A DNA stretch of 63,841 nt, filler included, from Hausera hauseri (lineage: Eukaryota): NCBI GenBank assembly GCA_046269625.1. It is 12 parts of 12 records of this genome, joined end to end, with 100 filler letters (N's around TTAATTAATTAA, not from the genome) between each part and the next. Parts side by side here need not be neighbours in the genome. Positions count along the whole stretch, not along the records: positions 1 to 6,174 come from JBJURY010130317.1; 11 more parts are not named here. One strand, given 5' to 3'. The notes under the pieces are model-generated. The model did not search any database, had not been told where the DNA came from, and saw only the letters and a list, made by a program, of their open reading frames with translations. Shown here in pieces: positions 1 through 49,647 of the stretch. The position numbers were made by a program, and so were the translations under genes. Position 1 is the stretch's first letter. Each line of letters begins with the position of its first letter.

Positions 1-109
1 GTGTCCATAGTGCACAGTGTGCACTACCGATCGGCACATGTGCAAAATCCATTTATCGATTACCCCACCCCTCCACGGGGTGGGGCAGAACCGCCATTTT
101 CACACTACT
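1..109 (-). mobile_element. Polinton/Maverick terminal inverted repeat end
   Basis: Ends in ACTACT (104-109), i.e. AGTAGT on the minus strand, the typical Polinton terminus. Its reverse complement aligns with 11389-11495, upstream of a pPolB (shared AAAAT..TTCTG..CCACCCC, GCACATGTGC, TGCACAC.GTGCACT). Confidence 0.7.
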
Positions 110-717
110 GTCAACGTATAAACAATTATGACACTCATGTAACTGGTCTTACGAAAGCGCATATAATCAACCAAATGGATATTAACCATTTCTATACCAG
201 AATCTCAACCGTTCTTACAGATAAAATGTTCACCGGGGGGACATCATTCATACGCTAACTACTGACTTCAAATGTCCACTACGAAAAATCAGAGGGGTGT
301 TTGATATTTTATATGACGACCTGGTTGCTCAAAAATACCCAATGGACTCCGTAAATTTTCGGGATTTAACCAGAAAATTTTACGAGACTCGGACTATGCC
401 GTTGCATAGTACCGTTCTAGTCCAATGTTTCTAGTCAATTTACTCCACGTTACAATAGTCAGACGAAGTCATAACGAATGAAACGGTTCCCGATAAGGTT
501 CTAAGTAAACCACTGGAGATATCATCACTAAAGCGAAAATTGGAAATGGATACAGAAGTTCTAGTAAACGGCGAGAAATACATCTTGGACGCCATATGTT
601 ACAAAGCTCAGTCCGGAAAGACAATCTCCTTCCTACCCCAACCGTGAAATTTGGGGCAATTTCTTCGAACCCCCATAGAATTATTGAACTTCGAATCACA
701 GTTTTTCAGTTTTTAAT

Positions 718-1472: not shown

Positions 1473-1849
1473 TATTCAATAATATAGATGTATTTTATTT
1501 GGTTAATTGGAATTTTCATTCAGTTCATTCAACTGTTAAATAAATTTTATCTGTTGCATGAAATTCAACGGGGCATATTTAACTAATTTCCCATCACTAA
1601 CCTGTAGTAAAACACGACAAAAAATTATATAATTCCATCCGTCACTCAGCACATTAAAACCACATCCGAAAGACGAGATGCAGTCTGAGCAAAGGTAATT
1701 ATTAAAATTGCGGTATCGAATGTTTTCTGTCAAACAATATATAATTAATTATTTGCTTTCATTTCACAAATATTTTGATGAATAATGAAACTATTCAAAC
1801 AACGTTTTAATTAAGAAAAGCAGCAAAAGCAATACTCATACTCACGCCA

Positions 1850-2400
1850 GTTATGGGCCTTCATTCATTACTACTTTTGGTCCAGCCGGATAATTCCGTG
1901 TGGCTTCTTGTCCACAATTATATATCGGCATTGTCAAACTCATTACAGGTGACTTTTATTTTGTTTATATGTAAATATTTTGAGTTGAAAATTGGATTGC
2001 ATTGCCCGTCATGTATTGCGATTGATGCAAAGCAGAAAACGTTGTCTGGACTCTGAATTCGCTCAGCGGCTCTGCAATCTATTTTTGTCCGTTTTTTCTT
2101 CTCGCTGCTTTCTATTCCGCCATGCATTTTTTATTTCTTTGGAAACAATCACAACTAGCCATCCCACAGACCTATTCTGGATCTCATTCACTTTTTTGAT
2201 CAATTGTCCTGACTTACCCACCCATCTCAATGCCTTCTTTCCCACATCATTCGAATGCCCACTTTCTAATCTACAAATCCACCTATCTATTGATGCAAGG
2301 TAGATAGAATAGCGCCTCGCACTGTTGTCCATTGAACTCTCCTCTGACCAGACCCCACCCATTGGCTAGCTAAAACCAGTTTCCTTCCTGCATTTCTTGG
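1850..2400 (-). pseudogene. Possible non-LTR retrotransposon ORF2 C-terminal remnant
   Basis: RLESGHSNDVGKKALRW...EIKNAWRNRK loosely resembles the post-RT region of LINE ORF2. No core RT motif is visible. Confidence 0.25.
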
Positions 2401-2730: not shown

Positions 2731-2995
2731 GTCATGAAGCAATATTAATTTTTGAGTTACTTTTATTGTTATTTGCTAGGAGTCTAACAAATAATTCAAA
2801 TTATTCTGAGGGTTGATTTTTATTTAATTCTTTTTTACGTAACTCTTCTTGATGAAGCTGTTCACGTCGTATACGTTTTCTAGCGAAGTAAAGTTCAAGA
2901 TGTTCCTCTATTATCCACTTATAGCAAGAAATTCTATTTTGTAAACGTTTAAAAGGATTACTATCTCTCATATAACAATTCAATAATTAATTTTG

Positions 2996-3523
2996 TGTCG
3001 GAATTTAGTGATTTGCGTGCTGAGAAAATATAGAAGGTGATTAATTACCTTGGAATGTCTGTGATTCCAGGTTAAAACTTTATTTTGAAAAAGAAATTAA
3101 CTTGAAACAAAAATATATTAGTATGTAAAATATTCCCAAACCAAACAATTGAATACAACAAAAAAACTGAATAACAAATAAACGACTTACTGACAAATGA
3201 TGCTGACGATAAAGTGTGATTTCACAATAAGTGAGTGACTACAAAAATTCAAAATATCAAATTTAATTGCCTTTAGCAAACAGGCGAAACTTCGCCAAAA
3301 ATTTTCACCCAAAATTATGTTCAAAGGTGTAAATTCACCAAAAATTATTGTTCTCCTTTTTCTCAAATTTGATGTTGGTTATATACCAACTTGCCAACTA
3401 TTTTTAGCGTCAAAATAGTGGCAGAAAAAATTCACACTGTCAGTCCAGTGAGTTATTTTTGGATTGCGATTATTCATTAAATTTATTTATTTTTAGATTG
3501 CAGGCAATTCTCAATTCTCAACA
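2996..3523 (-). mobile_element. 3' LTR (about 528 bp) of a retroelement carrying accessory ORFs
   Basis: Minus strand starts TGTTGA directly after a PPT and ends CCGACA. It contains a TATA (about 3380-3385), AATAAA (3079-3084) and GT-AG intron-like segments. Confidence 0.6.
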
Positions 3524-3534
3524 TTCCCCGACCC
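3524..3534 (-). promoter_or_regulatory. Polypurine-tract-like plus-strand primer site
   Basis: GGGTCGGGGAA immediately precedes the TG of the LTR on the minus strand. Confidence 0.6.
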
Positions 3535-3542
3535 ATAAAAAT

Positions 3543-3785
3543 ACACATGCAAACTGAAAAGATAAAATAATACATAAGATGGAATTATATATACAGAAAT
3601 GAAAGGCATGAAGTGTCAAAATATCACTAATAGAATTGTCCATATACAAGCTGATTAAATACATGCAAAATGAAAAGGGGAAACAAAGATACATAATGTA
3701 AATATATACAAAAATGAAAGGCACGAATGATGAAGAATTTCGGTCAATAAAAAAATTTGTTCATATACAAAGTGATTAGATACAT
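3543..3785. repeat. Imperfect tandem duplication (about 120 bp x2) in the element 3' UTR
   Basis: ACATGCAAA.TGAAAAG...ATATATACA.AAATGAAAGGCA.GAA...CATATACAA..TGATTA.ATACAT occurs twice. Confidence 0.8.
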
Positions 3786-3925
3786 ATAATATACAAGATT
3801 TACAATCAAAAATCAATGTTACGATCAAATGTTAATGTTAATGTTCACATCTGCTTTTCAACGATGATATCGGTTTTTGTAACTGAACAACAAGACTGGA
3901 TAGCAACTGAGCTGGTCTTTGCCAT

Positions 3926-4552
3926 TTAGTTATCGAGATCCACATTTTCGTAGTCAATACGTGTATCAATAAAATCTTCCTTATCTGGTTTGGAGCCTGG
4001 TCTTGGCCGCTCTATTGGAATCAATGTGGGTTGCTTCTGTTTCATTAGGAGCAAATATTTGAGATGGCCATTAAAAAATGTTTCCGTGATAGCGTCAGAG
4101 GTTAGTGTGGTATCCATTCGTATCCGTAGTTTAGTGTTAAGCGAAATTCCATAATTAACTGGTAAATTTAACACTGCTACTGGATTCCAATAGGGAATAA
4201 TGAAATAATGATTGTTAGGTTTTTGGTATATCATCCCAATAAAAAGATTATTCTCTGTGCTCCATTTGAATACTTTTCTTGAGATCGTATCTTTTAAAAA
4301 ATATGGTCGATCGATACTGTGAATTGGCACGGGTAGATTCAAGTAATTCTTTTTTATTATGATTCCAAAATTAAATTTCAATTCTTCCTTATTAATCAAG
4401 GTATGTTCGATTTGTAGAGCCAACTTTTCGGTAGGAGACATTTGAGTTTGACTTGCCATATTAACTGTTTTTACTGGATAACGCCAACGTCCAAGCTCAC
4501 CTTCATCGTCATCTTCTGTACTCTGAGGAGCTAGTATCTGCTGTATATCCAT
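3926..4552 (-). CDS. Intact 208-aa accessory ORF of unknown function inside an LTR element
   Basis: Uninterrupted and intronless. Starts 18 bp after the upstream ORF stop and lies just 5' of the tandem repeat, PPT and LTR. Confidence 0.7.
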   Translation of the reverse strand: MDIQQILAPQSTEDDDEGELGRWRYPVKTVNMASQTQMSPTEKLALQIEHTLINKEELKFNFGIIIKKNYLNLPVPIHSIDRPYFLKDTISRKVFKWSTENNLFIGMIYQKPNNHYFIIPYWNPVAVLNLPVNYGISLNTKLRIRMDTTLTSDAITETFFNGHLKYLLLMKQKQPTLIPIERPRPGSKPDKEDFIDTRIDYENVDLDN

Positions 4553-4570
4553 GTTATCAATTATATCTTC

Positions 4571-6174
4571 TTAATTATCGCTTTCAACGTCTTGTATCTC
4601 CACATTTTCTGGTGTAGCTAAGTCTAAGTCCTCTTCAATGAAATCTTCCTTGTTATCCACCACTTTCTGACTATTTGTATTAGTTATTTCGACTTCAATC
4701 TTATGAATCCATGCGAATTCTTGTAAATATTTTTCTCGACAATAAAACAATTCTCCGACATCGACTATGTTTTCCATAATGTTGTCAGGCATCCAATGTG
4801 GTTCATGTTTGATATCTTGGATTTTCTGAAGAATGTCTAACGCCAATTCTAATTTTCCGATAATATTTTGTTCGTATATTTGTCCATTTCTGAATTTTGG
4901 TAATTTAAGTTCTCGAGCTACGTTCATTATGTCCACTGTGTTGAATGTTACTCCGGTGACTTCCGGATGTTTCAGCAAATCAATGGCGCCGGCTAGGTAA
5001 TTCGAAGGCACTTCGAACATTTGTAATGATCGGTGTATATCGAGTCCTATGGCTATTGTTCCAAATAACCATTGAATCACTTCTTTTGACATCTCATAGA
5101 TATCAAAACCATGTGCTTGTAACGATTGAAAATCAATACCGTGCCGTCCGGTATTACAATTGTGCACTCTAACACGATTCACAACCAATGAATAATACAA
5201 TATTTTACCCTTGATATTTGAAATTGTCACCTCTAGTGGTAATGGAGTATTGTCCGCTGAGAATCCAATAGATATAGTTAAAATTCGAATGGTATCTGAC
5301 TGACATGTTTGCAAATAATTTAGACGAGCGTTCATGATGAATTCTGGCGGAGTCTGGACTAGAACCATAGGTCTAGGTAAGGCCAAATGCTTTTCAGGCA
5401 GAAGCCATTCTAGCATGATTACCATTGGAATCCGATTAGGGCGAATTTGAAGCAGATCTACACTCATAGGAGTGTTTATAGCGATTGATTCCTCCTCAAA
5501 TATTGTGGAGATATTAGACAACGTATACTGGGTATTTTTCTTGGTCTTTAAAACGGCTGTTCCTCGAGCCATATGTAAAATTAAACCATCTATGGATGGA
5601 CATTCTGTGATGAATTCGTCCATATTTCTTTGTTTGGATTCTGTTATAGTAATTATCTTCGCGTGCCGGTTTACGGTAGGGCCATACTTCAAATGATTTG
5701 GGATTTTTGTCACATGAGGGTACGCCGATTCGGGGTAGATTAAAGTTTCTCGTCTAATGTGATTATAGAACGTCCGTGACATCGTCTTCGTGAACGATGA
5801 GTTTTTGGCTGCATATTGAGATAAAAGTTGATCAATTGGCAGGACGTCTGCGTGAAACAGCGGAAAATTTGTGGATGATATACTTTGGTGATGAATTGTG
5901 TTAACTGCTCGCATATCTATCATTTTTGCTTTGAACTGGTTTTGACTGGATTGATAATTAATTTTGAATTGTTTTTGAATCAATTTGCGAAAAGGGGCTG
6001 AATAAGAAAAATCATTGTTTAAATACTTACGTAAAGTTGTGTGTGTATCACATGGTGACCACATAACCAATAATAACGATGTAAAAATGGGACCTAATGT
6101 ACGTGGCGCATATGTGTGCATGCTAATTTGCGATGACATCAGCTGTGGCTGGTCACGCGATTTTAGCGGGCAGT
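4571..6174 (-). CDS. Intact ORF (522 aa or more, 5'-partial) with a degenerate DEDDh (REX4/ISG20-like) exonuclease domain
   Basis: The frame stays open to the contig end (CPLKSRDQPQL before the Met). Residues ~284-440 (LEVTISNIKGKILYYSLV..V.N.NT.RHGI...L......EV.QWLFGTIAIG) follow the REX-family pattern RVSIVN..G.V.YD.YV....V.DY.T..SGI....L......V..LL.G.ILVGH, but the catalytic acidic residues are absent. Confidence 0.65.
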
Positions 6175-11388: not shown

Positions 11389-14300
11389 AGTAATAGTTGT
11401 AAGAAAATTGCAATTCTGAACCACCCCGGGGAGTGCGAATCAATAAAATCAATATGGCACATGTGCATATCAATACTGCACACGGTGCACTTTCGATTGG
11501 TACTGTGCTAGGCGATGGTGCCGCTAGCATCGTTGCTAAGCACATTTTTTCACATTTGACAATTCGATCGCTGCATATTGCACAAATGACCGAATCGATC
11601 GGACCAAAGTGATAATCGATAGTGCACATCGATTGGTGCACAGTACAGGTGCGCAGCACATATGCAAGTGTCAAAAAATCAATAATATCGGTTTTTCGAT
11701 AATATCAATATTGATGATTATTACATGGCACCGCGTGAAATCTAGTACAAAATCGATTCTCTATGTGAATGTGCAAATAAAATTTAAATCGATAGAGTCG
11801 ATTTCGAATAATATCGATCCAAATTTAACTGGTGCAGACTTCCCATAGGTTTTTTAGGTCCTAAGGAGTCAAAATTCGGCAAATGTTTAAGCGAGAACAC
11901 ATAGGAAGTGGCACATTGTAACCCGGGTCTTCCATCTGAGATTACCGAAATTCGGTGAACAACTCGAAAAAATATCGATTTTCACCGAATATTATCGAAC
12001 ACCTTGGAATCCATAATGTTTTTGAGAAATCTGAGAGTGCCAGTCGATTCCCCATGTCTTAATGCATCTACATAACACTTTTCCGATGTGTAGCACGTGG
12101 GAAAGTGTGCTTTAATCAATAATAAGGGTTTTCCCATAAAACCTATAAAGTTGATTTTAGCACACAAGCAAGTGAAAATCAAAAAATGTAAAACCCTACA
12201 CACATAGAAACTAACATATGCTGTATCAGATTATGACGTCAGATATTTGAGAACTCGAATACAAGTTAAACTTTTCGAATAATTGATTTTCTATTCGAAT
12301 ATAAGCAAAAACCGAAAAATCTATAAGCGTAAAGGGATAGAAACCTATATATGGAGAATCTAAATATGACGTTAGATATTCGAAAAGAGGCGCAAATGAA
12401 AAAGCCTACTTTTCGACCGAATTTGAATATTCGAATAATACCATCGGATTCTTCATGTCCAGAAACCTTTGTAGACCAAAAGTTGGGTGTGCAAAGTATT
12501 TACAAGTGTCTCAAAATAAATAAAACATTGAAAAATTGTATAAGATTCGGTCAAGCGTGCACTATTCAAAGAATCTAATGGCGTCATTCGATTCCCCATG
12601 GAGAAAACCTATAGTACAATCAATATTGGCGCGGTACAGTGCACCATGGTGTATTAAACAAGGTTCTTCCAATATGGTAAAAGTACATAAAAATAATAAG
12701 TAATTATATTGTGCTTATTTTGATTGCACAATTGAAGTGGAATTGAAAGAGAAGCATACTAAAATCGATAAATCTAATATTGCACACAGATAGGAACACA
12801 TATATGGAGAATCGAAATACAATGTCAGATATTCAAATACATAATTGTAATCGATCAATTATCGATTCGAACTCGAAAACTCGATAAAACGAGCATTATT
12901 CGAAGAATCTGATGGCTTTAATCGATTGAATGAAAACCTATTTGGCGCCCAAGTGAATTTAATATAATGCAGCGGCATTATGGATACAAATCCAAAAGGA
13001 TCCAATATTATATGTCCAGAATGTGAAACTGTATGCGATGTAGATTACATACAGTTCTATTATGATCACAAACATCATTTAAAGAAGGTCAAAAAAGCCA
13101 AAGAAAGGACATCTTTAATGAGCAACATAATAATGATTCATCTGCTTCGCAGTATGATGCTTCGCAATATTTTGCTTCGCATTATATATTAGAAACATAT
13201 TCGCGAAACATATTAGAGAATTGAAACGTATAGCCGCATTAAGCACATTAGGTGCAGCCACATCAGACGCAGCGGCTCCATCAAAAAGCCAAAGACAACG
13301 GCCAGTTGATGTGGCAGCATTAAAGAGAAAATGCCGCAGCTATGTTATTTATGCAACTGGTCAAACAATTATCCAAGACTTTCTGGAATATACAAAGGAT
13401 AAGACAGAGGAAATTCTTCAGGACAACATGGTTGAGTTCAAAGCCCTTAAGGTGAATATAAAACTGGAAGCCACATACATCACTATTGGTGGCGAAGAAT
13501 TCAATAAGGCATTCAAGACCAAAAATAGACCCATATAGAAAAACACCAATATAGCAGAATGGATGCAAGAGGCATACGAGAAGGTGATCCGTGAAGCCGG
13601 GAGAGCCAGGATAAGAAGAGCGAATGGACTCTGGCAACCATCAAGAGATTGATTGTGTATGTGCACAAGTACTCTCCCATGCGGGACAGTTCATATTTTC
13701 AACTCCCTGATTGGATCGCTAATAAAACACATGTGTCAATGTCCATAATGGCGACAACGTGTTTTATGTATGCCATTCTATCAAAACTAGTAACGGATCA
13801 AAATCGTGCTTTACGAATTTGGCTAGATAAGGATGTGCAGCACAACTATGACTTCCAATGTATCAAGTTTCCTCCATCCATAGATAAAGTTAAAAAATTA
13901 AAAAAAGTCAACAACATGTCCATCAATATCTTGGGATTAGATGAGGATGATAAATTCTATCCCCTGCTGATATGTGATACTGAATTGGAAGATCATAGGG
14001 ATCTGCTCCTACTAGAATATGGAGAAAAGAAAGATTATGTATGGATCAAAGACTTTGGACAGCTAGTCAGATCACAAATTACGAAACATCATGGACAAAT
14101 AGAAATATTTAAACGTTGTTTGTCCCATTTCAGCGGCGATGTAGCTGTATTGAAGCTGAAAGAGCACAAGATGTACTGCAACAATAATTACTGTATCAGG
14201 CCAGATTTTCCCAACGAGGACTACATTGAATTCCGGAAGTTTGAGAAGAAGATTAAGGTCCCAGTAGTTATCTATTGCGACTTTAAGGCTATTTTGCGTC

Positions 14301-15828
14301 CAGTTCAGAGTTTCAGTCCGAATCTCCAACATACAGCACAACGGCATACCAATATCATGAGCTCTCATAATATTGCATGTATGCTAAAGGACTGGACAGT
14401 GAACCATATCTATTCAGGGATCCAGGCGCACAGCTCATTTCATGAAACGACTTGAAGATATGGCTCATAGGATTGGAGATATGCAGCAGCAGCATAAGGA
14501 TACAATGAGCATGTCGAATCAGCAAGAAGAAGAATGTCACAAGGCAACAGCATGTTACTTGTGCTTTAAATCATCCACTAAGGATAATTGTAAAGTCAGG
14601 GATAATTGTTATTTTAGATGCAAATATCGGGGCGCGGCATGCAACAACTGAATATATACATTGCAAAACATGTACACATGTGCCTGTAGTATTCCATAAT
14701 CTTAGTGGCTATGATTCCCATTTCACTGTTCGGGAACTGGGCAGTATTGAAGGAAACAATGATGTGATCCCTAATAATGAGGAAAAAGTACATGTTGGGA
14801 AAATCAGGCTTCGCTTCGTAGACAGTTTCCGTTTCATGTAGCCTTCACTTAACAGTTTAGTGAAGAACCTCCCTGCAAAAGAACTTAAGGAGATGAAGCG
14901 GTTCTTTCCGACTTCATTTGACCTAGTCAAAATAAAAGGCCTGTTTCGCTATGACTATATAACAATATTGGAAACACTGGATGAGACCTCATTGCCGGCC
15001 AAGAAGGACTTTTACAATATCCTCTCTGATTGCGATATCAGTAATATAAACTACTAGCATGCTCAGAACATCTGGCATGCATTCCAGTGCAGAAGATTAG
15101 GGGAATACAGCGATATATACCTCAAGTCGGACGTGCTGCTTCTGACGGATGTCTTTGAGAGTTTCAGTGATGTTACGATGAAGGGCCATGTATTGGATCC
15201 GGCTCATTTCTTTACGGCTCCAGGGATGCGCTGGGCAGCAATGCTAAGATATACAGGTGTCCGGCTGCAAATCATAAAGTATTACGACATAATCCTCATG
15301 ATCGAGAGAGGCATTAGAGGAGGAATATGCCAGTCCATTTACCGATATAGCGAGGCCAACAACAAGTATATGACTCAGTATGATCCATCCAAGGAATCCT
15401 CATATATATCATACCTGGATGCTAACAACCTATATGGATGGACATTGAGCGCCCCATTACCATATGATAACTTCAAATGGGTCGAGCATCCTGAAAACAT
15501 CCCTATACCGGACCTGGACCACACTGGTAACACGGGCTACATACTAGAGATGGATATGGAATATCCGGCTTCTATCCACATAAGGCATCAACAGCTGCCT
15601 TACCTCCGTGACAGCAAGCCTCCGCCCCATGGAAAGCATAGAAAGCTGCTCTGCCGTCTGAATAGTAGGGAGAGGTGTGTAGTCCACTACATTAATCTCC
15701 AGCAGTCGGTCAGGAATGGACTCCGCATTACTAAGATCCATCGGGCCCTGCAGTTCCGGCAGTCAGATCTCAATAAGAATCTGCGGACAAATGCCAAGAA
15801 CGACTCTGAGAAGGACCCGTTTAAGTTG
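11389..15828 (+). mobile_element. Left part of a Polinton/Maverick (adintovirus-like) element
   Basis: AGTAATAGT terminus homologous to 1-109, then about 1.5 kb non-coding DNA rich in TGCAC/ATCGAT/TTCGA motifs, then pPolB. Confidence 0.75.
13221..15828 (+). pseudogene. Protein-primed family B DNA polymerase (Polinton type), frameshifted and 3'-truncated
   Basis: VIYCDF, KVRD.C...[66 protein letters not shown] and YLDANNLYGW motifs in order across frames. Confidence 0.9.
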
Positions 15829-26822: not shown

Positions 26823-27251
26823 CAAATATTTTGGATCTCTGTATTATGTGATGGTTACTTGATTGACGCAACAATACTTATGCAATGTTTACACACATTT
26901 TGTATAAATTGCATTTGTAAGTACACCGAAAGCAACCGTTATTGTCCGCTCTGTCAGTATTTAATTCAAGAAACCCGATTGGATAAAGGTTGTACGAAGC
27001 TAGATGTAGTTCTACAAAAGGCCATTTATAAACTTGTTCCAAAGCTTATGAAATCAGAAATGAATAAAATCAAATATGAATCCGGTATTTACCTTCTCTG
27101 TTCACCATTGATCAAAATCGATCAGGTGAAGAAACTGATTCTCAACAAATACCACCTCAATCCAATGGAGTACAACGTCAAGTTGTGGTACGATAGCGAT
27201 TGTCTTACTGCCGATATTGCATTTCAAAAAATGCTTTTAACAACAAATTGA
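26823..27251 (+). pseudogene. Polycomb group RING finger (PCGF/BMI1/Psc-like) fragment: RING plus partial RAWUL
   Basis: LCDGYLIDAT..QCLHTFC.NCI.KY.E..YCPLC...D..LQ..IYKLVP.L.K.EM matches the BMI1 RING, with the first Cys replaced by Ser. YLLCS...I..VKKLI.NK resembles RAWUL. Confidence 0.85.
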
Positions 27252-31968: not shown

Positions 31969-32065
31969 CAAATATTTTGGATCTCTGCATTATGTGATGG
32001 TTACTTGATTGACGCAACAATACTTATGCAATGTTTACACACATTTTGTATAAATTGCATTTGTA
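31969..32065 (+). repeat. Second copy of the PCGF RING start
   Basis: 97 nt matching 26823-26919 with one mismatch, running to the contig end. Confidence 0.92.
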
Positions 32066-32165: not shown

Positions 32166-35100
32166 ATGAAAATAAAACTCAAAATGCCGCTAATCGCAGC
32201 ACAAGATATGACAATAGGAATTTTAGTGATAATCGGAACACATAATCCTTACAACAAAACAAGTTATATTTAGGATAGGAACCAAAATAACGACTGAAAC
32301 AATAAGAACCGATATACAGATAATCGAACTTTCGAAAATAGAAATAATGGAATCGATAAGCAAGCTCAACCGACTCAAAACAAAATGACAGGCAGACCCA
32401 AATCACCAGTAAATGAATACAGACGACAAAGGATCGACCGAGACGGGAATCTGATTTGTTATTCATGTAGTAAGGAAGGACATATAGCTAGATTATGCCC
32501 TAATCCACGAAGCGTATCATTTTCAGAGACCAGTAAAGCTGGCACGATAAACGATAATTTGGAAAGAATCTATGGAAAACAAGGTGATATAAGCATGATA
32601 ATCGAAATGCAAGACTTACGAATATATATAAGAAATATGGGCAAATCTAATAATCCACAAGTAATCAATGCCAGGAAGGAGTATGAAAAGTTGCAACTAA
32701 TGAAAGTTTATCATGGGTTAAGAGAACCAAAAACAGAGTATGAGAATGCTATAGCACCTAAGAATACTAACATGGACAGGAAAAGAAACCTAAATCAAGT
32801 AGTGGAAGAGGGAAAGCCGACTACGTCTCCAAGTGTAGACTTGGACGCAGATACTGAGGTCGTGTCTCGAAATAATGACAAAACAACAGACAAGGTTGAG
32901 AGTGAATTCATTGGCCCACTAATACTCAAGATAACGAAAAATAGGGGTAGAAGCCCTTCACTTAGGAAAAGGTCGCGAACTCGTTCACGATCCCCTATTA
33001 GGAAGGATTTAAAAAAAGAGGAAGATTTCATCATCACTTTAAGATATGAAACGGAGTAAAACACTCATGTTATAACCCAAGGCTTTCCAAAAGCAACAGA
33101 TATTTCAAATATTGATGAAATTAATGAAATATGTCCATTACCACCTAGTAAAGAGGAATCAGAAGAGGAAAAATCTGTTAAGTTTTGGAGGATTAGAAAA
33201 TCTTGGAAAAATGCAAACGAACTAACCAAAATAAGGGATACAATAAATGATCCGGGAAGGCTGCATGAGAGTCTGCAGAAACTCCAGCCGATGAGCAAAC
33301 AGTTGGATATCTCCGGAAAAGAACAACAATTCATAGAAAAGCTATATAAAAAGCTTAAACCCGGCTCTCAGAAAAAGGAAAAAACACACCTTATGAACTC
33401 CAAGAGACGCCGCAATAATTGATTGGAAGTTGGCAAAATAAATTAAAACTGTGGACAAGGTGTGGGATCAACTTTACGAAAATATGGTGGAGTAGAAATG
33501 AGCCGTTTCTCGATCAGGTTAATCAAGCGCAAGGACTATTAAACGCACTAAAAGATAACCCAAAATTGAAACGCGTAAGACGTAACTTAGAAGGATTGAT
33601 ATATGAGATCGAAGATGCGATAATTTCTTATCTGCATAACAAGCCAGTTTATGAACTGACTAATGCCGACCTAGAGATATTGGGCATAAACCAAATCGAT
33701 ATCCCCCTTTAATAGCAATGTGCAGCCTGATAAAGGATAACCCTCGAAAATACTCAGATTTAAAATTACGTATTGAAAAAGAAAATGACATACGAACTAA
33801 AATCAACAACTTCAGGAGCGGTGCAGTTCACCCTGAAGGAACAGAAGCACAGAGAATAGCACGCGCTTGTCTTCTCAAGTTAGATGAGTATAAAGAAGAA
33901 TTCAACTACATGAAACATATTATAGAATTTGTAAGAGGGCCAGATCACGAACTAAAAGAAGCTCTTGGGACATTAGACGAAATAATCTACGCTAAACCAG
34001 CAATATCTAAACACCTAAAGAAGTGGATAGAATTGTTACCTTCCATAGCAGGGATAATAAATAAAAGACTAAGGGAATTCGCTATGGTTAAGCCTATAAT
34101 GAGACACCAATTGGAAGAAATGTTACTAGATGTCGATACAATGGAAGACAAAGCGAAATTGCGAATTAAATTCGAATCGTTTCGCGAACTGGAATTTATG
34201 AGCAGAGATCAAGATCAAACAACACTAAGAGAGATATATATTATGATAGAAGAAAAGGAATTCTACAGAAAAAGAAACAAGCTAGGTGATCTTCAGCGAA
34301 GTTTAGCGAACATCCGTTGGGAAGGGATACAGAGCTTAATGCAAAAACTGTTGAAGGAAATCTCAACGCAGGAAATTGAAACATTGGAAGTATGTAACGA
34401 TCACCGGATTGCTCTGGAGCAAACACTACAATATTTACAGAACCCAGCAGAATGGACACCAGATTTCGACCTACATTGCCTCACCGAACTAACGGAAATT
34501 AGGAAGGATCTTCAGTTGACGGGCGACAAAGCCAAGTTAATAGGCAGGTTAATGGACGCAATAGATCAGGACGCTGAAGTATTAAATCAAACGCACAAAT
34601 TAATCCTACTATTAACAGAAATGGCAGAAATTGACGAAGTAGTAGCCAGACGACTAACAAATCGAATACGTCTGGTAAAAGAAACCCGGTTACGCTCCGA
34701 GAAAAGACAGCACGAGCCAAACGAATTACTGAGGGAAACAGACGTTTATAAGAACAAGTATTCCTTTACGGAATCTGAAATTAACGACAAAATGGAATTT
34801 ATACAAAGATGGCAAAGGGACAGAATCGCAGAAGTGACTAACTACCAGGAGAAAGCCTTGATGCAACCAGAAGAAATGTGCCGATTAATAAAATTCATAC
34901 AACAAGCTTGTGGAAACCGAGATGGATTTAGGATATCCATAATGAAAACATTGCAACCACAGATAAAAGAACTACACGAAAGAGTCCAGGATGGACACGC
35001 GGCATTAATGAACTACGAGTTACCTGACGCAGATAACGATGCCGAGTGGGATGAATGTCTCCAAGGTTTAAACGGTCAAAGTCAAAGAACTCCAATACAA

Positions 35101-36218
35101 ATTTATGAGTCACCTACTGGTACCCAGAAGACGAAATTCGATGTGCAAATGCTACTTGATCCCACGCTAGCCAAAAGGAATTGAGCAGTGTGTTAAAATT
35201 AAACATAAGTGAAGATAGGTTAAGGAAATTGATTCCAACCTTGACCAAGCTATCCAATGAAAACACCGCATACAGCGCTGTACCCAAGCTCCTAATAAGA
35301 GAATACGCCAAACTATTGAAAAATAAACCAGAGGCGGAAATTAAAGTGAAAGTATCATCCGAAGGGATGGACGACGAGGAATTTGAATGCACTTCCTATA
35401 CCACCGTTGGAGATATAAAACAGCGGATAATAGATAAGGATGGTAGGAAAGGATTTAGTTACCGACTCTATTTCAGGGGCAGAATACTATACGACCTAGA
35501 ATCCTTGACATACATAGGGATTATACCCTTCGAAGAAAATCAAATAATAGCAATAATTGCCAGTGAGCAAACCAAAGATGAAGCCATGAGGAAGGCACAT
35601 ACAGAGCACTGCGTTGGGAGAATCATGGGGATTAAGTATGCCGCAATGTATTTCGGATACTTACAGACTGATGATGACAAACCGCAATACGATAGAAACT
35701 TAGTCCCTCTAAGCGAAATTTCACCACCGATGAAAGCGAAACGACCGGTCGGAAGACCGAGAAGAATAAAAGAAATTGACTACAATGCTGACCTAATTAG
35801 GGAATTGAGACAACTATCGGTACCAACCCCGAGTTCAGATAATGAAGAACTTATTGAGCTAATGAAAGACTTAATTATGATAGTCAATTATACCGGCCTC
35901 CAAGGCGATATAATATCCGAGAAGGAATGACTAATATATAATATAGCCCGGACAATGAAAACTTCACGATTTAAATTATCTAAAAGCACCCTCCCTAATG
36001 AAACAGTAATTGATGGAATTATGATAGACAATACGATGGAAGAATTAAAGAAAGTCTTGATATAATTAGCAGTAAGAACTAACCCTCTCCGGGAAAACGA
36101 ATTTGACAAGATAATTGGATTAGCTAGAAAAGCTGCAAGAAGGGTACTTAAAGAGATAAAATGGACTAAATTATTCGAAAAAGAGGAGGATACAAAAGGG
36201 ACTAATAAGATAGAGGAC
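32166..36218 (+). pseudogene. Extended Gag polyprotein: N/R/D-rich linker, CCHC knuckle, RS-rich segment, long helical region, ubiquitin-like domain, AT-hook-like motif
   Basis: CYSCSKEGHIARLC at 32457-32498. ORFs 32385, 33419, 33718 and 35181 join into one frame when compared with the paralog at 60027-63841. Confidence 0.8.
35337..35561 (+). other. Ubiquitin-like (beta-grasp) domain
   Basis: IKVKV...TTVGDIKQRIIDKDG....RLYFRGRILYD.ESL..IGI parallels ubiquitin TI..VK.KI.DKEG....RLIF.GK.L.D..TL. No C-terminal GG. Confidence 0.75.
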
Positions 36219-37354
36219 ATGATACGAAATATCTCTCCAAACAAAGGAACCGAATCCAATTGGTTAATCAACTTGCTGACGATAATAATGTTAGTAAATC
36301 AGATAGGAGCAGTCACTATATACGACTGCGACAAATTCAAGGTGGGTCAAAAATATTTCTTGATGGACTTAGAAACATGTGAAGATGCGAGATCCCACAA
36401 GCTCGAGACAGCAGAAAAGAAATATATGCTATACCAACAACGTGAATTAATTGCAATGGATGCGACGGAATGCATGATACGGAAATCCCGCAGCGTATTT
36501 CATTGTGGTAGTATGCACGGACATTCTTCAATAATCGAACCAACCACACCATTAATCCCAATAAACGTGGATAGACAGCACTGTTTAGGAGCCCGCATAA
36601 CCAGAAAAATGGTTTTGGACAGTATGAAGTTAGAGGCCCATGCAGGAAAGATAATTAGAGCTTACAAAGTGGCAGTAGGAAAATTAAACATGCACACCGG
36701 TTATTGCGTCGGAGTAGAATATGACACCAGAAAGGGAAATGAAGCAGGGATAGTAGTTGCGGATTTTTACGAAACCGAATTAAGATTCCTAAAAGCGATG
36801 TTTCATAGTGTTACAAAACTATTTACCGAAAATCAAAATGTTGCATTCAAGATGGTGCTTGCACGTTCCGAAGCTCAGTCGTTGTATGGAGCCCACTTTC
36901 CAAGAGAGATTGCAACTTCATCAAAATCAAAGAGTTAAAGTTTAACGAGACAACCGGAAAACGTTATACAAATAAATTACACACTAATACTAGATCAAGG
37001 GAAGACGTAATAGAACATCCCACACCAACGATCTTGATATCGGGTGCACATGGGTTAAAGTTTATTAGAAAGGATATGTTAACACGTTGTGATGTAGTTA
37101 TGTATGCCACCAAATACGAAGCGTTTTCGTAGCAGAAACAGAAATTGAAATGAAAACGTACGATTTAAAAACATGAAATGTGCGGATTGAGGATTACCTA
37201 AAAAATCGAGACGACTATTTCTATTAGAAAGGGCAGACCGGAATAGCAGAACTATACCACAAAATGATAACGAATGACTGCAGATTAGATACTGAAGTCA
37301 TGAGAACCAAACTGGCCTTAATTTATGCCAACCCAGAATTGGCATCACTAATTA
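36219..37354 (+). pseudogene. env: Chuvirus-like / gB-type class III fusion glycoprotein (env), 3'-truncated by the contig end
   Basis: Signal-like WLINLLTIIMLVNQIGA, then YDC, C, Q...A.EC.I.....FHCG..H.S.I and G.C.G.EY. After frameshifts: C..QDG.C......VW......C, RCD..MYAT and YL.N..DY......LYH.M...DC.L.....RT.LAL....P, the cysteine pattern of Chuviridae G. Confidence 0.8.
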
Positions 37355-44847: not shown

Positions 44848-45150
44848 NNNNNNNNNNNNNNNNNNNNNNNNNNNNNNNNNNNNNNNNNNNNTTAATTAAT
44901 TAANNNNNNNNNNNNNNNNNNNNNNNNNNNNNNNNNNNNNNNNNNNNGTGTATTAATTTTAACCTTAGCTCAACAACATTTCAACACAACATATTCTCAT
45001 TAAATAGACTCATTATCATTAGCACAAAAATACTGATTGGTACTTAATTATCCACAACCATGCCTGCTACGTGTGTGATTCATATATCAGTGTTACCCTT
45101 GATTACTAGAGCATGTGGTCTAGGAGCCAGCCGAAGGGGCAGTCTTCCTC

Positions 45151-47139
45151 TCACGCGTTGTCGTCGTCTCCGTACGGGTAGTACAGAGGTGCGTCGGTTC
45201 CAGATCCCTCTTGTTGCTGAGTCATCTGGAACGCCAGGGGTGGGTGAGGTTCTGAGCCAGCCCTAAGTGCCTGGGAGATGGTCCTTAAACACAGCATCCG
45301 CAGAATCGGAAGCCCACACAAACAACAACAACTCATAACAATCACGACGGAAATCACCGGCATCAATATGGCAGAGATGGCACTCTTCCACCCACCAAAG
45401 AGTCTTGCAAACCATCCTTCTACCTCTGCAGAAGTACCTGAATGACTGACCATCTCCTCAGACAAGGACCTCAGACCCTTAATCGCCCTGGTGAATGTCC
45501 CCCCAGTTCCTGTATTCCCGGGAATGAAGGTACAACACGAAGCCCCAAAAAATGCACAAACCCCACTTTGTTCAGCCAAAATATAATCTAATGCAATTCT
45601 ATTTTGATAGGCCATGAGGGAGGTGGCAGCTAACTGCTCGTGCGCAGCCTGAAGGGCATCTCTAGTCAAATTATTTAACCTCTGAACATTAAAGTGTATG
45701 TAATTTATTCTGTCCACATTCTTATTCAGTGTGATCCAGGGGAGGATGCTTTCAAAACCTGCAGCCACCTGATCCACTAATTTAAATTCCGTAGGGACAC
45801 CTCTCGGGATCCCCACCGAATCGAAGTAGGCTGGACTATCTTCATAGATGTCAAAAGCACGCTTAAATCGTCTCAATTCTACAACCTGCTTGTCCTGGGG
45901 GACCCGGTGGGACGTCAACTCCTCCTCAGTGATGTTCACAATTCTCACAGGCGAGACGAGGGAAACCTCGGCACACACTCCTTCCCAATCTGCTGGCAAA
46001 ACATTCAACAGCCTGTTACCACCACAATACCAGAACACATCTGCTCTAGAAACTCTCAGCCTAGTAGCATTACTCCAGGATGTGACATCAATCAATTTAC
46101 TACACCAAGACTCGTCCACTTGTCCAACATCCACCTTCCTCTGCCGCCCCCTCCTGGCCAAACAAGTGTAGTCGTTCTTCACTGCATTGAAGATGGGCGG
46201 GGAATCTGTCTCAGGAGACATAGGGAAAAATTTCTCCAAATGTTTACAACGAGCCGAAGGGTTCTCAACAACATGCAACTCCAACATGCAAAAAAATTTT
46301 GATTCATCACTCAGCGGGGAAGGAACAGTCAATAAAGCAGGCCGGGCCTGAGCACACACAACGCAGTCAGCCACTTTGGCTTGGCTGGCTGCATCTTGCA
46401 CATACTTTACCCAGTAGTTCGCCTGAGTGAACCCCGTTTCCACAGCAAGCTCCGCGCTCGGTGCCACGTCAACTTTCAGCTCCAAATCACTGGGCTGTAT
46501 CACATGAATAATAAAATTACCAACTGGGTCACGCCCAAAGGCAGTCGCCCCCATCAAGAAAGATCCAATATCTGTGATCTGTGGATTAATCAAAGTCAAA
46601 AACATAGGATTACAAGTAAAATCATTTTTACAGTCTTCTTTGGTCTGGCCTCTCCTAATCTCCATGCGGTCTCTAAGCGGGTTCCGGCCATAGTCCTGAA
46701 ACTCATAGCCACACCCATACTCACCCCCCATCATAGCCATGATGTGAGTCGAACACACATACACCTTGCCTTTGCTGTAAGAAGCCTGGTTTGAATCACA
46801 TTTTATCACCTCGCAGAGATCAAACAGAATTGTAGCACTCTGTCCCTGCACAAAACTGAATTTGTACACCTCTCTCTGCACACCAGACCGTCTCCGCCTC
46901 TCTCCCAACTCAGCCTGTTGGAAAGATGTGTTGTCAACATTTTGCATTTTTTCAAAATCAAAATCAAAAGACGGCGGAGTTGTTGAGTTAGTCTGGTTAT
47001 CAGGTATGTTAGGTTGTGATTCAGTTTCATTTCTGATTTTCTCCATTTCTTTGTTAGATTCAAAACAAGAAACACAACAAACAAAAGAAAACAAAAACAA
47101 AAAGAACAAAAGATTTTTCTCACACCCCCTTTTTGCCAT
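45151..47139 (-). CDS. env: Intact gamma-type retroviral envelope (662 aa), teleost ERV-like
   Basis: N-terminal signal peptide, CVVC (CXXC), furin site RRFKR, immunosuppressive domain YQNRIALDYILAEQSG, CX6CC (CAFFGASCC), transmembrane helix and Cys-rich tail. Confidence 0.95.
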   Translation of the reverse strand: MAKRGCEKNLLFFLFLFSFVCCVSCFESNKEMEKIRNETESQPNIPDNQTNSTTPPSFDFDFEKMQNVDNTSFQQAELGERRRRSGVQREVYKFSFVQGQSATILFDLCEVIKCDSNQASYSKGKVYVCSTHIMAMMGGEYGCGYEFQDYGRNPLRDRMEIRRGQTKEDCKNDFTCNPMFLTLINPQITDIGSFLMGATAFGRDPVGNFIIHVIQPSDLELKVDVAPSAELAVETGFTQANYWVKYVQDAASQAKVADCVVCAQARPALLTVPSPLSDESKFFCMLELHVVENPSARCKHLEKFFPMSPETDSPPIFNAVKNDYTCLARRGRQRKVDVGQVDESWCSKLIDVTSWSNATRLRVSRADVFWYCGGNRLLNVLPADWEGVCAEVSLVSPVRIVNITEEELTSHRVPQDKQVVELRRFKRAFDIYEDSPAYFDSVGIPRGVPTEFKLVDQVAAGFESILPWITLNKNVDRINYIHFNVQRLNNLTRDALQAAHEQLAATSLMAYQNRIALDYILAEQSGVCAFFGASCCTFIPGNTGTGGTFTRAIKGLRSLSEEMVSHSGTSAEVEGWFARLFGGWKSAISAILMPVISVVIVMSCCCLCGLPILRMLCLRTISQALRAGSEPHPPLAFQMTQQQEGSGTDAPLYYPYGDDDNA

Positions 47140-47193
47140 CTTAACACAGTTATGATGGTCAAAATGAAAACTGGTTTTTTTCTCTTTTTTTTT

Positions 47194-49647
47194 TTAACAC
47201 AGTTTCTTGTTTCTCAAATTATAGGTTGAGTTCACAGCAGGTGTGGAGTTCTGTTCAGATGAGGGCCTTCTTTCTGCAGATTTTTGTTTTTTCACAACTG
47301 AAGCCCTCAGTTTTTTTCCGTTGCTTTCAACCTGCTGCACAGTTTTTTCAGCTGGAGCCCCAGCTTTGCAACAATGAGTTTTATGAATCCACCTGCTTAT
47401 TTTTTGGTCAGTTAGCCAAACCTTCAGGCAGTGAGATGTTGTCTCTGCCACTTTAAAAGGACCTTGCCACCTGGGGTTGCGCCAGTCGAACCTGGCAACC
47501 TTTCTCAGAACCCAGTCTCCTGGTTCCACAACAGCACAGTCTTCTGGGGCGTCGTCTTTCTGAGCAGCCACAATCTGTTGAGAGATGCTCATGACAGTAT
47601 TTCTTAACCGGGTCATATACTCTGACACAGCTTCATGCTGCAACTGTAAGTTATTACATTCAGTAGGCATTGTTATCAGTGGACATGGCATTCTCCTGCC
47701 AGTCAAAAGCTCATGAGGACTCACATTTAAAGACCCACTTGGGCTGGAATGCAGATTAAACAAGACTACTGGAAGTGCCTCTAGCCAGTTCAGCTTCGTG
47801 TCTGCACATATTTTAGCCAACCCCTCTTTTATAGATCTATTTGCTCTCTCTACCTTTCCCTGTGATTTTGGATGAAAGACTGCTCCAAATTGATGTCTGA
47901 TTCCAAACATCTGCTCTATTTTACCAAGATCCTTATTAGAAAAATGTCGAGCATTGTCAGATTTTATCACAGATGGCACTCCAAACCTTGGAACCACCTC
48001 ATTTGTCAACCATTTTATCACCTCAGCTGCTTTTTCTGTTCTTGTTGCTACAGCCTCGATCCATCCTGAAAAACTGTCAACACACACCAAAAGGAACCTC
48101 TTCCCTCTCACTCTGTTCTCACTGCCCATGTCTGTAAAATCTATACAGATCTCTTTCCATGGCGCTTCAGGAACAGGAAATGCACCTAACCCTGCTTTTA
48201 AGACAGCTTTTGGATTATGCTGGCAACAGATTTCACACATTTCCACAAAATACTTAGAGATTAATCTAAGATTTGGGTGCCACCACACCTGAGTAATTAT
48301 GTCTAGCATCTTTGAAGCCGAACCATGTGCTCGGCTGTGAGCTTCTTGACACAACATGCTAACAAGCTTCTCTGGGGCAACCACCTTACCCTCATGGTTC
48401 CTGTACAGCCCATCACCATCTTTCTTAGCTCCTCTGTCCTGCCACAGCTGCTTTTCTGACTGAGTAGCTTCGTTCTGCAACTCTGTGATAGCCTGAACAT
48501 CAAATTTCTTCCTCAACCAGTCCTCTGGAGTGTCAGCTCTTCCTACCTGAACCATCTGTGTTTTATTTACATAACCAGCACAAGCCTTTGCTGCTCTGTC
48601 TGCTTCAAAGTTGCCCATGGAGATTACATCACACCTTTTCTGATGACCTCGGCACTTTAATACAGCTACTTCTGCTGGCTCTCTCAGAGCATAATACAAC
48701 TCCAAAAGGTGTTGCAAATGCTGGACGGGCTTCCCCGTCGCTGTCACAAATCCCTTCCTTTTCCAGTGACATAATTCTATATGGACACATTTGTGGACGT
48801 ATTCTGAGTCTGTGTACAAGTTTACCCTCTGACCTCTTGCCAACTTACATGCTTCAATGACCGCTCGTAATTCTGCAAGCTGAGCTGAGGCTGGTTGGTT
48901 TAGTAAAGAGGTATGCACCACTTCAAACTGTCCCTGTTGTTCTGCCACTACTGCACAAGAGGTCACCAGAGAGCCTTTGTCAGATTTATGTGAGTGTCCA
49001 TCTGTAAAAAGTTGTCTGTCTGGATTGTCCAAAGGGTCTCTGAAAATGTTGTCATGAATTCTCATTTCATGATTAGTAGTTTCTACACAGTCATGATCCT
49101 GTTCTGTCGTCATATTCACTGCCATGTTGACTCCCTCAGCTGTGAAATGAATATTAGGTCTGTCTAACAGCTGCCTTATGTTTTCTGTTCTCTGTGGTGA
49201 AAATGTGAATGCCTGTGAGTCAATAAAAGCTTTTACATCATGTAAAGTGTGCACAATGACTTGATTCCCCATTGTTACATGTGATGTTTTCAGAATAGCC
49301 TGTGATATTGCAGCTACGTGTCTCACACATGACGGGTGACCCATTTGAACTTGGTCGAGTTTCGCACTGTGATACATCAGAACTCTTCTTGTTTTTTCTT
49401 CCTTTTGATACAGTACTGCATTAACAAAACCTGCATCCTCATTCACATCCAGGTGAAATGGTTTTGAATAATCTGGAGTCTGTAATGCACAGGCGTTAGC
49501 CAGTGCCTGCTTCACTTCTACAAAAGCTGTCTCTGCCTCTTCTGTCCAAATTAAAGGGGAAGCATAATTTTTGTACCCAGCTGCTGTTATCAGTTCTCTC
49601 AAAGGGAAGACTTTTGAGCAAAACGCCGGAACATAAGCTCTGCTGTA
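47194..49647 (-). CDS. pol: Intact retroviral pol, 5'-partial (RT thumb/connection, RNase H, integrase), epsilon/class I-like
   Basis: Frame open to the contig end (YSRAYVPAF...PLREL). RNase H: FTDG, SAQLAEL, YTDS, GN..AD. Integrase: HHCC and D-D-E (IDFTDM, SDNARHF, GKVERAN). Confidence 0.95.
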   Translation of the reverse strand, partial: YSRAYVPAFCSKVFPLRELITAAGYKNYASPLIWTEEAETAFVEVKQALANACALQTPDYSKPFHLDVNEDAGFVNAVLYQKEEKTRRVLMYHSAKLDQVQMGHPSCVRHVAAISQAILKTSHVTMGNQVIVHTLHDVKAFIDSQAFTFSPQRTENIRQLLDRPNIHFTAEGVNMAVNMTTEQDHDCVETTNHEMRIHDNIFRDPLDNPDRQLFTDGHSHKSDKGSLVTSCAVVAEQQGQFEVVHTSLLNQPASAQLAELRAVIEACKLARGQRVNLYTDSEYVHKCVHIELCHWKRKGFVTATGKPVQHLQHLLELYYALREPAEVAVLKCRGHQKRCDVISMGNFEADRAAKACAGYVNKTQMVQVGRADTPEDWLRKKFDVQAITELQNEATQSEKQLWQDRGAKKDGDGLYRNHEGKVVAPEKLVSMLCQEAHSRAHGSASKMLDIITQVWWHPNLRLISKYFVEMCEICCQHNPKAVLKAGLGAFPVPEAPWKEICIDFTDMGSENRVRGKRFLLVCVDSFSGWIEAVATRTEKAAEVIKWLTNEVVPRFGVPSVIKSDNARHFSNKDLGKIEQMFGIRHQFGAVFHPKSQGKVERANRSIKEGLAKICADTKLNWLEALPVVLFNLHSSPSGSLNVSPHELLTGRRMPCPLITMPTECNNLQLQHEAVSEYMTRLRNTVMSISQQIVAAQKDDAPEDCAVVEPGDWVLRKVARFDWRNPRWQGPFKVAETTSHCLKVWLTDQKISRWIHKTHCCKAGAPAEKTVQQVESNGKKLRASVVKKQKSAERRPSSEQNSTPAVNSTYNLRNKKLC

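What the first reader, a model, noticed from the sequence alone, without database searches (positions are those of the whole stretch)
4571..6174. LTR element carries an intact but apparently catalytically dead DEDDh exonuclease
Seen: an uninterrupted ORF whose residues ~284-440 (nt 4820-5290) keep the REX4/ISG20-like scaffold. ExoI DxE reads as ILTIS, the ExoII D as S, and the ExoIII H..D as Q..K. It lies upstream of a second ORF, a PPT and an LTR, and is intact while almost all other TE ORFs here are broken. Inference: a captured pseudo-nuclease acting as an RNA binder or a decoy against host RNA surveillance or small-RNA silencing.
Basis: partly seen in the sequence, partly recalled or inferred. 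Interest (0 to 1): 0.72.

Follow-up and report, generated by a model that had tools for sequence, protein, structure and literature searches.

The report
Dead nuclease carried by a retrotransposon
A repeated mobile element in an animal genome carries a gene whose protein keeps the shapes of two enzymes, an RNA-trimming nuclease and an oxygenase-like barrel, but lacks the catalytic residues of both and still appears to be kept by selection, so it probably works by binding rather than cutting.

Summary
The dead nuclease is real. The predicted domain (nt 4790-5293, minus strand) matches human ISG20 (Z 15.0), and all five catalytic positions are replaced (T299, S301, S382, Q435, K440).

(1) An N-terminal cupin/2OG-oxygenase barrel with no metal motif, so the protein is a double pseudoenzyme.
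(2) A family: 4 of 10 distant homologues keep the active site and 6 do not. A second, broken degenerate copy sits at 112-641 in the same contig.
(3) 'ORF2' continues in frame right after the stop, so this copy is probably one interrupted gene of about 665 codons, not intact.

The region is repeated in two sequencing runs, and the variants look purifying (12 of 18 synonymous; 10 of 10 coding pieces gapless). Relatives with intact sites are the last gene of RING/TRAF/coiled-coil accessory arrays before an LTR; one locus continues LTR-PBS-gag. The window's own LTR is unpaired and cut by the contig end, so it is unproven. RNA binding or decoy function is inference only.

Verdict: a new variant of retrotransposon accessory cargo.

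The parts
4571..5923 (-). ORF1, probable coding part (M84 to stop, 450 aa): barrel domain + dead ISG20-like domain + acidic linker
   Evidence: homologues begin to align near residue 109-150
5924..6174 (-). Open but probably non-coding leader. Candidate splice acceptor AG at 5998; very high-depth repeat near the contig edge; contig ends at 6174
   Evidence: 11 of 14 pyrimidines before the AG; bin 5975-6174 depth 21,969
5390..5818 (-). Double-stranded beta-helix (cupin / 2OG-Fe(II) oxygenase-like) domain, residues ~119-261, with no HxD/E in this protein
   Evidence: block pLDDT 74-93 except one loop; 5c5t Z 10.2, rmsd 3.2/131; ALKBH6 and ALKBH1 Z 9.8 and 9.7
5687..5704 (-). Family signature IPNx[LM]K; I, P, N and K invariant in 16 of 16 rows that cover it
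4790..5293 (-). ISG20/REX4-like DEDDh domain, residues ~294-461, lacking all five catalytic residues (T299, S301, S382, Q435, K440)
4571..4573 (-). In-frame stop inside an acidic stretch (35% D/E in the 34 codons before, 38% in the 26 after)
3926..4570 (-). 'ORF2' (214 codons): same frame, probably the C-terminal part of the same gene; fold unknown
   Evidence: no Pfam hit (7), no usable Atlas hit (55), model pLDDT 32.5 (62)
3545..3785 (-). 3' untranslated region with a ~116-nt tandem duplication that is absent in some related contigs
   Evidence: 74% identity; joints skipping 115-116 nt
3524..3534 (-). Candidate polypurine tract (imperfect)
2750..3523 (-). Candidate 3' LTR starting TG at 3523; far end not fixed; repeated in reads; unpaired; contains a 56-codon ORF at 2801-2971
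   Evidence: depth and bridging joints 2963-3518; no second copy in the window
112..641 (+). Second, broken member of the same family (one frameshift near 237-240, two stops), 42-53% identical to degenerate homologue P0008, pointing towards the first
1811..1948 (+). Probable host exon, secretin-family GPCR-like, low depth; lies between the two element fragments
   Evidence: 7tm_2 E 0.0088, below the curated cut-off; depth 4-9

Best explanation
This is an accessory gene at the 3' end of a large Gypsy-type LTR retrotransposon of an invertebrate, of the kind that carries arrays of host-like genes. SHOWN: the protein is a cupin/2OG-oxygenase-like barrel followed by an ISG20-like DEDDh fold, both without catalytic residues. 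SHOWN: the loss is shared with proteins only 19-27% identical, so it is a family trait and not decay of this copy. SHOWN, on a limited list: related copies vary mostly synonymously and without frameshifts. INFERRED from relatives: the gene sits before the 3' LTR and is read from a spliced subgenomic RNA. INFERRED: it works without catalysis, most likely by holding RNA (the element's own transcript or its 3' end) in the emptied nuclease pocket with help from the conserved barrel, so that host exonucleases or surveillance factors are kept off. This copy probably encodes a truncated 450-aa form. Step odds: dead fold 0.95; mobile and repeated 0.9; LTR class 0.75; family under selection 0.85; nucleic-acid binding 0.5; a specifically anti-silencing decoy 0.2.
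For: Fold. Active-site map with natural controls: 4 of 10 cluster representatives keep D-E..[DE]..H..D and 6 of 10 lack both ExoI acids. Repetition: summed depth 605-2,771 over nt 3915-5974 against 4-9 over nt 1443-2060 in run X1, and the region is also present in run X2, which has a different organism label. Selection: 12 of the 18 listed coding differences are synonymous against 0.33 expected (p 0.004); 10 of 10 listed coding pieces are gapless at up to ~19% divergence against 0 of 3 divergent non-coding pieces (p 0.003); the one listed insertion in the coding region is 3 nt. Context of relatives: 8 of 9 loci have a conserved purine tract + TGT after the ORF; 2 of 9 reach a matching LTR end; L008 continues with a PBS-like motif and a Retrotrans_gag + zinc-knuckle ORF. 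Upstream genes encode RING, TRAF/MATH and coiled-coil proteins. 16 of 16 accessory starts examined have an acceptor-like AG within 16 nt (15 of 16 within 4 nt). Contig 7 of the window has zinc knuckle - long ORF - ubiquitin - mononegavirus-type fusion protein, the Burro layout in PMC6431247 (passages). Basic residues replace catalytic ones in 3 of 7 degenerate rows. Precedent for DEDD pseudo-nucleases that bind RNA: PXL (PMC13659232 abstract); Maelstrom and EXD1 (PMC5408684 passage).
Against: No gag, pol or paired LTR is linked to this ORF; the contig ends. All 9 loci with context hold intact-site members and come from only two assemblies; no degenerate member was seen in context. The relatives' PPT motif is missing from contig 1, and read depth over the candidate LTR start (110-240 in most bins) is lower than over the ORF. 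Only 40 of 1,070 differences were shown, chosen by support, so the synonymous excess rests on a biased sample; the listed pieces overlap and are not independent. The nuclease domain is not basic. Two positions nearly invariant in the family are changed in this copy (N332 for P, I397 for R). The model rests on 11 sequences, mean pLDDT 66, pTM 0.51, with the segment before ExoIII under 50. The internal stop suggests this copy may itself be defective.
Confidence: 0.5

Rival explanations
1. The protein is a protein-binding adaptor, not an RNA binder. The two dead folds recruit host proteins for ubiquitination or signalling interference, working with the element's RING and TRAF genes.
For: Neighbouring accessory genes of relatives are RING, TRAF/MATH and coiled-coil proteins. 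Degenerate homologue P0004 ends in a RING finger. The domain has near-neutral charge. Burro cargo is rich in apoptosis and ubiquitination domains (PMC6431247 passages).
Against: Only 1 of 10 representatives has the RING fusion. Both folds come from families that include nucleic-acid-acting enzymes. No partner is known.
Confidence: 0.22
2. The N-terminal barrel does the work. The nuclease domain is a tolerated passenger, kept only as a folded spacer after catalysis became unnecessary.
For: I157, P158, N159, K162, R169 and G204 are invariant in 16 of 16 rows and H200 in 15 of 16, in intact and degenerate members alike. Several degenerate rows have long branches.
Against: The nuclease scaffold also keeps invariant P312, G322, R333 and D357. 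Identity to the query is similar in both domains (18-27%). Gapless, mostly synonymous variation covers the nuclease domain too.
Confidence: 0.13
3. The ORF belongs to a different kind of repeat (a Penelope-like or DNA element, or an integrated virus) or is an amplified host gene, and the PPT/LTR reading is coincidence.
For: No pol or paired LTR in the contig; relatives' PPT motif absent. DEDD ORFs are known to be shared between LTR and Penelope-like elements (PMC5408684 passages).
Against: All homologues with context are LTR-associated. The frame has no introns and ends ~400 nt before a purine tract + TG. It is highly repeated.
Confidence: 0.1
4. The enzyme is still active through a rewired site, as proposed for Maelstrom.
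For: D357 and R333 are invariant and D378/H380 are present in the query.
Against: No alternative set of His, Cys or acidic residues is shared by the degenerate rows alone. The catalytic positions differ freely among them (A/S/T; N/R/K/L/S).
Confidence: 0.05

Closest known systems
DEDDy ORF3 of bdelloid rotifer LTR retrotransposons Juno and Vesta (PMC5408684; passages read)
   Same: A DEDD-superfamily exonuclease as an extra ORF of LTR retrotransposons; the paper notes DEED in place of DEDD, and 9 of 10 intact rows here have E at ExoII.
   Different: Those are RNase D-like DEDDy proteins reported with invariant residues intact. This family is ISG20/REX4-like DEDDh, fused to a barrel domain, and has degenerate members.
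Burro giant Gypsy elements of planarians (PMC6431247; passages read)
   Same: Large Gypsy elements with MATH/TRAF and RING-type cargo, partly as separate accessory ORFs. Contigs 7 and 12 of this window look similar.
   Different: The passages found for 'DEDD' and 'exonuclease' concern Terminons, not Burro. No physical link between this ORF and the Burro-like contigs is shown.
ISG20 / ISG20L2 / REX4 / SDN1 exonucleases
   Same: Best structural and profile matches.
   Different: They are host enzymes with catalytic residues and no barrel domain; structural identity is only 11-15%.
AlkB-type 2-ODD ORF of orchid Gypsy elements (PMC9289625; abstract)
   Same: A 2OG-oxygenase fold carried as an extra ORF by a 25-kb Gypsy element.
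   Different: That protein is an active m6A demethylase close to plant enzymes. Here the barrel is detectable only by fold, has no conserved HxD/E and is fused to a nuclease fold.
Host pseudo-exonucleases PXL (PMC13659232; abstract) and Maelstrom (PMC2628886; search listing only)
   Same: An exonuclease fold without catalytic residues that binds nucleic acid.
   Different: These are host defence proteins. PXL depends on a positively charged surface (section heading), and Maelstrom has an EHHCHC set; neither feature is seen here.

Membership tests
DEDDh exonuclease (ISG20/REX4 group) | RNase H-like DnaQ fold | tested here: met
DEDDh exonuclease (ISG20/REX4 group) | Four acidic residues and the ExoIII histidine | tested here: not met
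   T299, S301, S382, Q435, K440
DEDDh exonuclease (ISG20/REX4 group) | 3'-5' exonuclease activity | not testable with these tools
   needs an assay
2OG-Fe(II) oxygenase (AlkB / prolyl hydroxylase) | Double-stranded beta-helix fold | tested here: met
   Z 9.5-10.2 over 131-144 residues; plain cupins score Z 9-10 over 90-100 residues, so the subfamily is not fixed
2OG-Fe(II) oxygenase (AlkB / prolyl hydroxylase) | HxD/E...H metal triad (motif from established knowledge) | tested here: not met
   No HxD/E in residues 157-258 of the query; present in 6 of 16 rows at two unrelated positions, none conserved
Gypsy/Ty3 LTR retrotransposon | Paired LTRs with TG...CA ends | tested here: inconclusive
   One candidate start at 3523; contig cut; no second copy in the window
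Gypsy/Ty3 LTR retrotransposon | Polypurine tract before the 3' LTR | tested here: inconclusive
   9 of 12 purines at 3524-3534; relatives' motif absent
Gypsy/Ty3 LTR retrotransposon | gag and pol in the same element | not testable with these tools
   No genome is held; gag follows the LTR only in relative L008
Gypsy/Ty3 LTR retrotransposon | Dispersed repetition | tested here: met
   (summed depth; not a copy number)
Bdelloid DEDDy ORF3 | RNase D-like DEDDy type with intact residues | tested here: not met
   Best matches are DEDDh; intact relatives have H..D
Maelstrom (MAEL) | Conserved EHHCHC set | tested here: not met
   No conserved Cys or His in the nuclease domain of degenerate rows; MAEL 4ybg ranks 36th, E 4.9e-4
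Burro elements | Giant gag-Smc-Ubl-env-pol polyprotein in the same element | not testable with these tools
   Such a layout is on other contigs of the window; linkage unknown

The most novel reading that the evidence does not exclude
Giant retrotransposons keep a dedicated counter-defence family in which a catalytically dead oxygenase barrel acts as a reader of modified or capped RNA. It is coupled to an ISG20-like domain that exists in cutting and non-cutting versions. The non-cutting versions cap and shield the element's RNA ends or soak up host RNA-surveillance factors: a transposon-encoded mirror image of host pseudo-nucleases such as Maelstrom.
Probability: 0.15. Interest if true: 0.8.

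Novelty: new variant of a known kind. Interest (0 to 1): 0.52.

Why it matters
Extra genes in LTR retrotransposons point to the host defences these elements must overcome, and few have a known function. This family supplies natural active-site-intact and degenerate versions of the same two-domain protein, so the question 'is catalysis or binding what the element needs?' can be tested directly. Seven literature searches showed no description of a barrel-DEDDh fusion or of a dead DEDDh ORF in retrotransposons. The library lacks most subscription papers and Repbase reports.

Tried and rejected
Searches with no useful result:
- Pfam on the ORFs: 0 of 3 hit. PDB by single sequence: none.
- Word-indexed homologue searches: none for the query, only P0007 for the profile, only itself for P0004.
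- Viral contigs: 5 scans, no relatives.
- Earlier findings: 3 look-ups, nothing.
- No RNA holder listed.
- ORF2: no Atlas hit; single-sequence model useless at pLDDT 32.5, not searched.
- A bacterial promoter scan of the left edge was uninformative.

Row dropped: P0013, the 11th phmmer hit, is a repetitive protein matching 39 residues and was dropped before all counts.

Ideas rejected:
- A shared leader motif before ORF1 and the 56-codon ORF: 123 of 2,000 shuffles scored as high.
- Independent losses of catalysis: the tree needs 2 changes, but one origin is not rejected (p-AU 0.43), long branches meet and there is no outgroup.
- Simple decay of this copy as the cause of the dead site: all five residues are lost, as in distant relatives.
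- The stop's state in other copies: not among the 40 of 1,070 differences shown, so unresolved.

Supplements of the cited papers were not read and may list further accessory ORFs.

Full report
SETTING. The window is a string of 12 contigs of 4.1-7.4 kb joined by spacers. The finding lies in contig 1 (1-6174), so nothing upstream of 6174 belongs to it, and no genome is held. The content is animal: a secretin-GPCR-like exon (weak Pfam hit), Gypsy pol remnants and retroviral-type pol and env on a GC-richer contig.

THE ORF. The minus-strand frame from 6172 gives 533 residues to a stop at 4571-4573. The next codon begins a further 214 open codons in the same frame. The acidic stretch runs straight across the stop (35% D/E before, 38% after). 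Base use by codon position is the same on both sides, and the best acceptor-like AG within 120 nt of ORF2's ATG is weak and 57 nt away (8 of 14 pyrimidines). In relatives, 15 of 16 accessory starts examined have an AG within 4 nt, after a non-coding spacer. Homologues are 446-870 aa when complete. I therefore read ORF1 and ORF2 as one gene of about 665 codons from M84, interrupted in this copy (about 65%). Read-through or two genes remain possible, because the site was not among the 40 of 1,070 differences shown. The first 83 codons are probably not coding.

THE FOLD. Sequence searches with the query alone found nothing in Pfam or PDB. The full phmmer search gave 11 hits; one repetitive protein (P0013) was dropped, leaving 10 at 22-29% identity. 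An AlphaFold model of residues 100-490 on 11 sequences had mean pLDDT 66 and pTM 0.51 and shows two domains. Residues ~294-461 match human ISG20 (Z 15.0, rmsd 3.1 over 159) ahead of other DEDDh enzymes. A 17-row profile hits ISG20L2 at E 1e-22, ISG20 at 3e-10 and SDN1 at 1e-7. Residues ~119-261 match double-stranded beta-helix proteins: viral prolyl hydroxylase 5c5t Z 10.2 (rmsd 3.2/131), ALKBH6, ALKBH1 and ALKBH7 Z 9.5-9.8, and plain cupins Z 9-10 over shorter lengths. This barrel was not modelled alone, so its subfamily is open.

ACTIVE SITES. In the alignment, 10 of 17 rows have D and E at ExoI and an acid at ExoII (E in 9, D in 1), and 9 of these 10 show H..D at ExoIII (one is cut by its contig). 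These 10 rows include near-copies and reduce to 4 cluster representatives. The other 7 rows (the query and 6 representatives) lack both ExoI acids, and 6 of 6 that reach ExoII lack that acid. P0007 and P0011 keep an acid at ExoIII. The query has T299, S301, S382, Q435 and K440. The barrel has no HxD/E in the query and none at a conserved position in 16 rows. It does carry the family's strongest signature: I157, P158, N159, K162, R169 and G204 in 16 of 16 rows, and H200 in 15 of 16. The tree groups the query with P0004, P0006, P0008 and P0012 (88/94) and puts P0007 and P0011 apart. One origin of the loss is not rejected (p-AU 0.43), and long branches make placement unsure.

REPETITION AND SELECTION. 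Contigs of two public runs with different organism labels were laid on contig 1; X1 may be the window's own source. In X1, summed depth is 605-2,771 over 3915-5974 and 4-9 over 1443-2060. The tool warns that this is not a copy number. Of the 40 differences listed, 18 fall in the coding frame: 12 synonymous and 6 conservative changes, against 0.33 synonymous expected for random transitions (p 0.004). All 3 in ORF2 are synonymous. Of 16 listed pieces, 10 lie in the coding region and all 10 are gapless at up to ~19% divergence. The 3 divergent non-coding pieces all have gaps, and 3 pieces are identical to the window. These lists are short, chosen by support and overlapping, so the evidence is good but not a full dN/dS.

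CONTEXT FROM RELATIVES. One metagenome scan gave 9 loci from two assemblies, all with intact-site members. The ORF is the last of a same-strand array: RING, RING, coiled-coil, RING, TRAF/MATH and coiled-coil ORFs in L007, and a probable membrane protein and coiled-coil ORFs in L001. In 8 of 9 loci a conserved C-run + purine tract + TGT follows (L002 is cut). L007 and L008 reach an inverted LTR end at 8082 and 4614, and L008 continues with a PBS-like motif at 4621 and a Retrotrans_gag/zinc-knuckle ORF at 4947. The family is therefore LTR-element cargo.

For the query itself, a G-rich tract and TG lie 400 nt after ORF2 (3534-3521), and related contigs bridge the region down to about 2960. Against this, the relatives' motif is absent, no second LTR exists in the window, and no degenerate member was seen in context. 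A second degenerate family member, broken by a frameshift and two stops, lies at 112-641 on the plus strand, 42-53% identical to P0008. The genome thus holds at least two distant degenerate subfamilies. Contigs 7 and 12 (77-87% alike over long stretches) carry a Burro-like layout, which makes a giant Gypsy parent plausible but not shown.

MECHANISM. A protein that has lost every catalytic residue yet keeps its frame and fold across copies must act by binding. I favour RNA, for three reasons: both folds occur in nucleic-acid enzymes; basic residues replace catalytic ones in 3 of 7 degenerate rows; and host pseudo-nucleases PXL and Maelstrom set the precedent. Against this, the domain is not basic overall (16 K/R, 17 D/E), and the neighbours of relatives point to ubiquitin and signalling interference, with P0004 fused to a RING finger. 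No test here separates these readings, and the decoy idea is the least supported step.

COMPARISON AND NOVELTY. DEDD exonucleases as extra ORFs of LTR elements are known from bdelloid rotifers but are DEDDy with intact residues (PMC5408684, passages; also cited in PMC6338049, one passage). An active AlkB-type ORF is known from orchid Gypsy elements (PMC9289625, abstract). TRAF/RING cargo is known from Burro (PMC6431247, passages). PMC7968707 (passages; listing) covers viral ExoN domains and showed nothing on such cargo in the passages found. Searches listed no barrel-DEDDh fusion and no dead DEDDh cargo. It works like a pseudo-nuclease but is not a member of the active DEDDh, 2OG-oxygenase, Maelstrom or bdelloid ORF3 groups by the tests above.

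VERDICT. A real feature and a new variant of a known kind (retrotransposon accessory gene). Interest 0.52.

Noticed in passing
window 112-641 (+): Broken second member of the same barrel-DEDDh family, close to P0008, converging on the query across a host exon; a 53-nt tandem repeat follows at 736-838.
   Followed up: yes
window 32166-37354 and 59086-63841: Burro-like giant Gypsy polyprotein fragments: gag/zinc knuckle, long helical region, ubiquitin-like domain, mononegavirus-type fusion glycoprotein (Pfam PF24664, E 2e-15).
   Followed up: partly
window 44948-49647: Contig with higher GC (44.5%) and long open retroviral-type pol (833 codons) and env (680 codons); may come from another organism in the sample.
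   Followed up: partly
window 1-109 and ~6100-6174: Very high-depth short repeats at both ends of contig 1; the left one has a GC-rich hairpin at 63-85 and a diverged copy at 11395-11491.
   Followed up: no
window 26823-26919 and 31969-32065: 99% identical duplicate of a RING-finger coding segment (RING + weak RAWUL hit, Polycomb-like) within contig 6.
   Followed up: no
window 13595-15828: Broken ORFs that look like a protein-primed DNA polymerase of Polinton/Maverick type (label recalled; no Pfam hit).
   Followed up: no
L007 1-4637; L009 54-2995; L001 1-3058: Arrays of accessory genes (RING, TRAF/MATH, coiled-coil, probable membrane protein), most with an acceptor-like AG at the ATG, suggesting many alternatively spliced subgenomic RNAs from one LTR.
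   Followed up: partly
L001, L003-L009, before the LTR: The tract before the LTR has a run of C in place of the usual run of G, followed by a short purine stretch, in 8 of 9 loci.
   Followed up: partly
window 2801-2971 (-): 56-codon charged ORF inside the candidate LTR, under a read-depth peak (915-1,312); no Pfam hit.
   Followed up: partly
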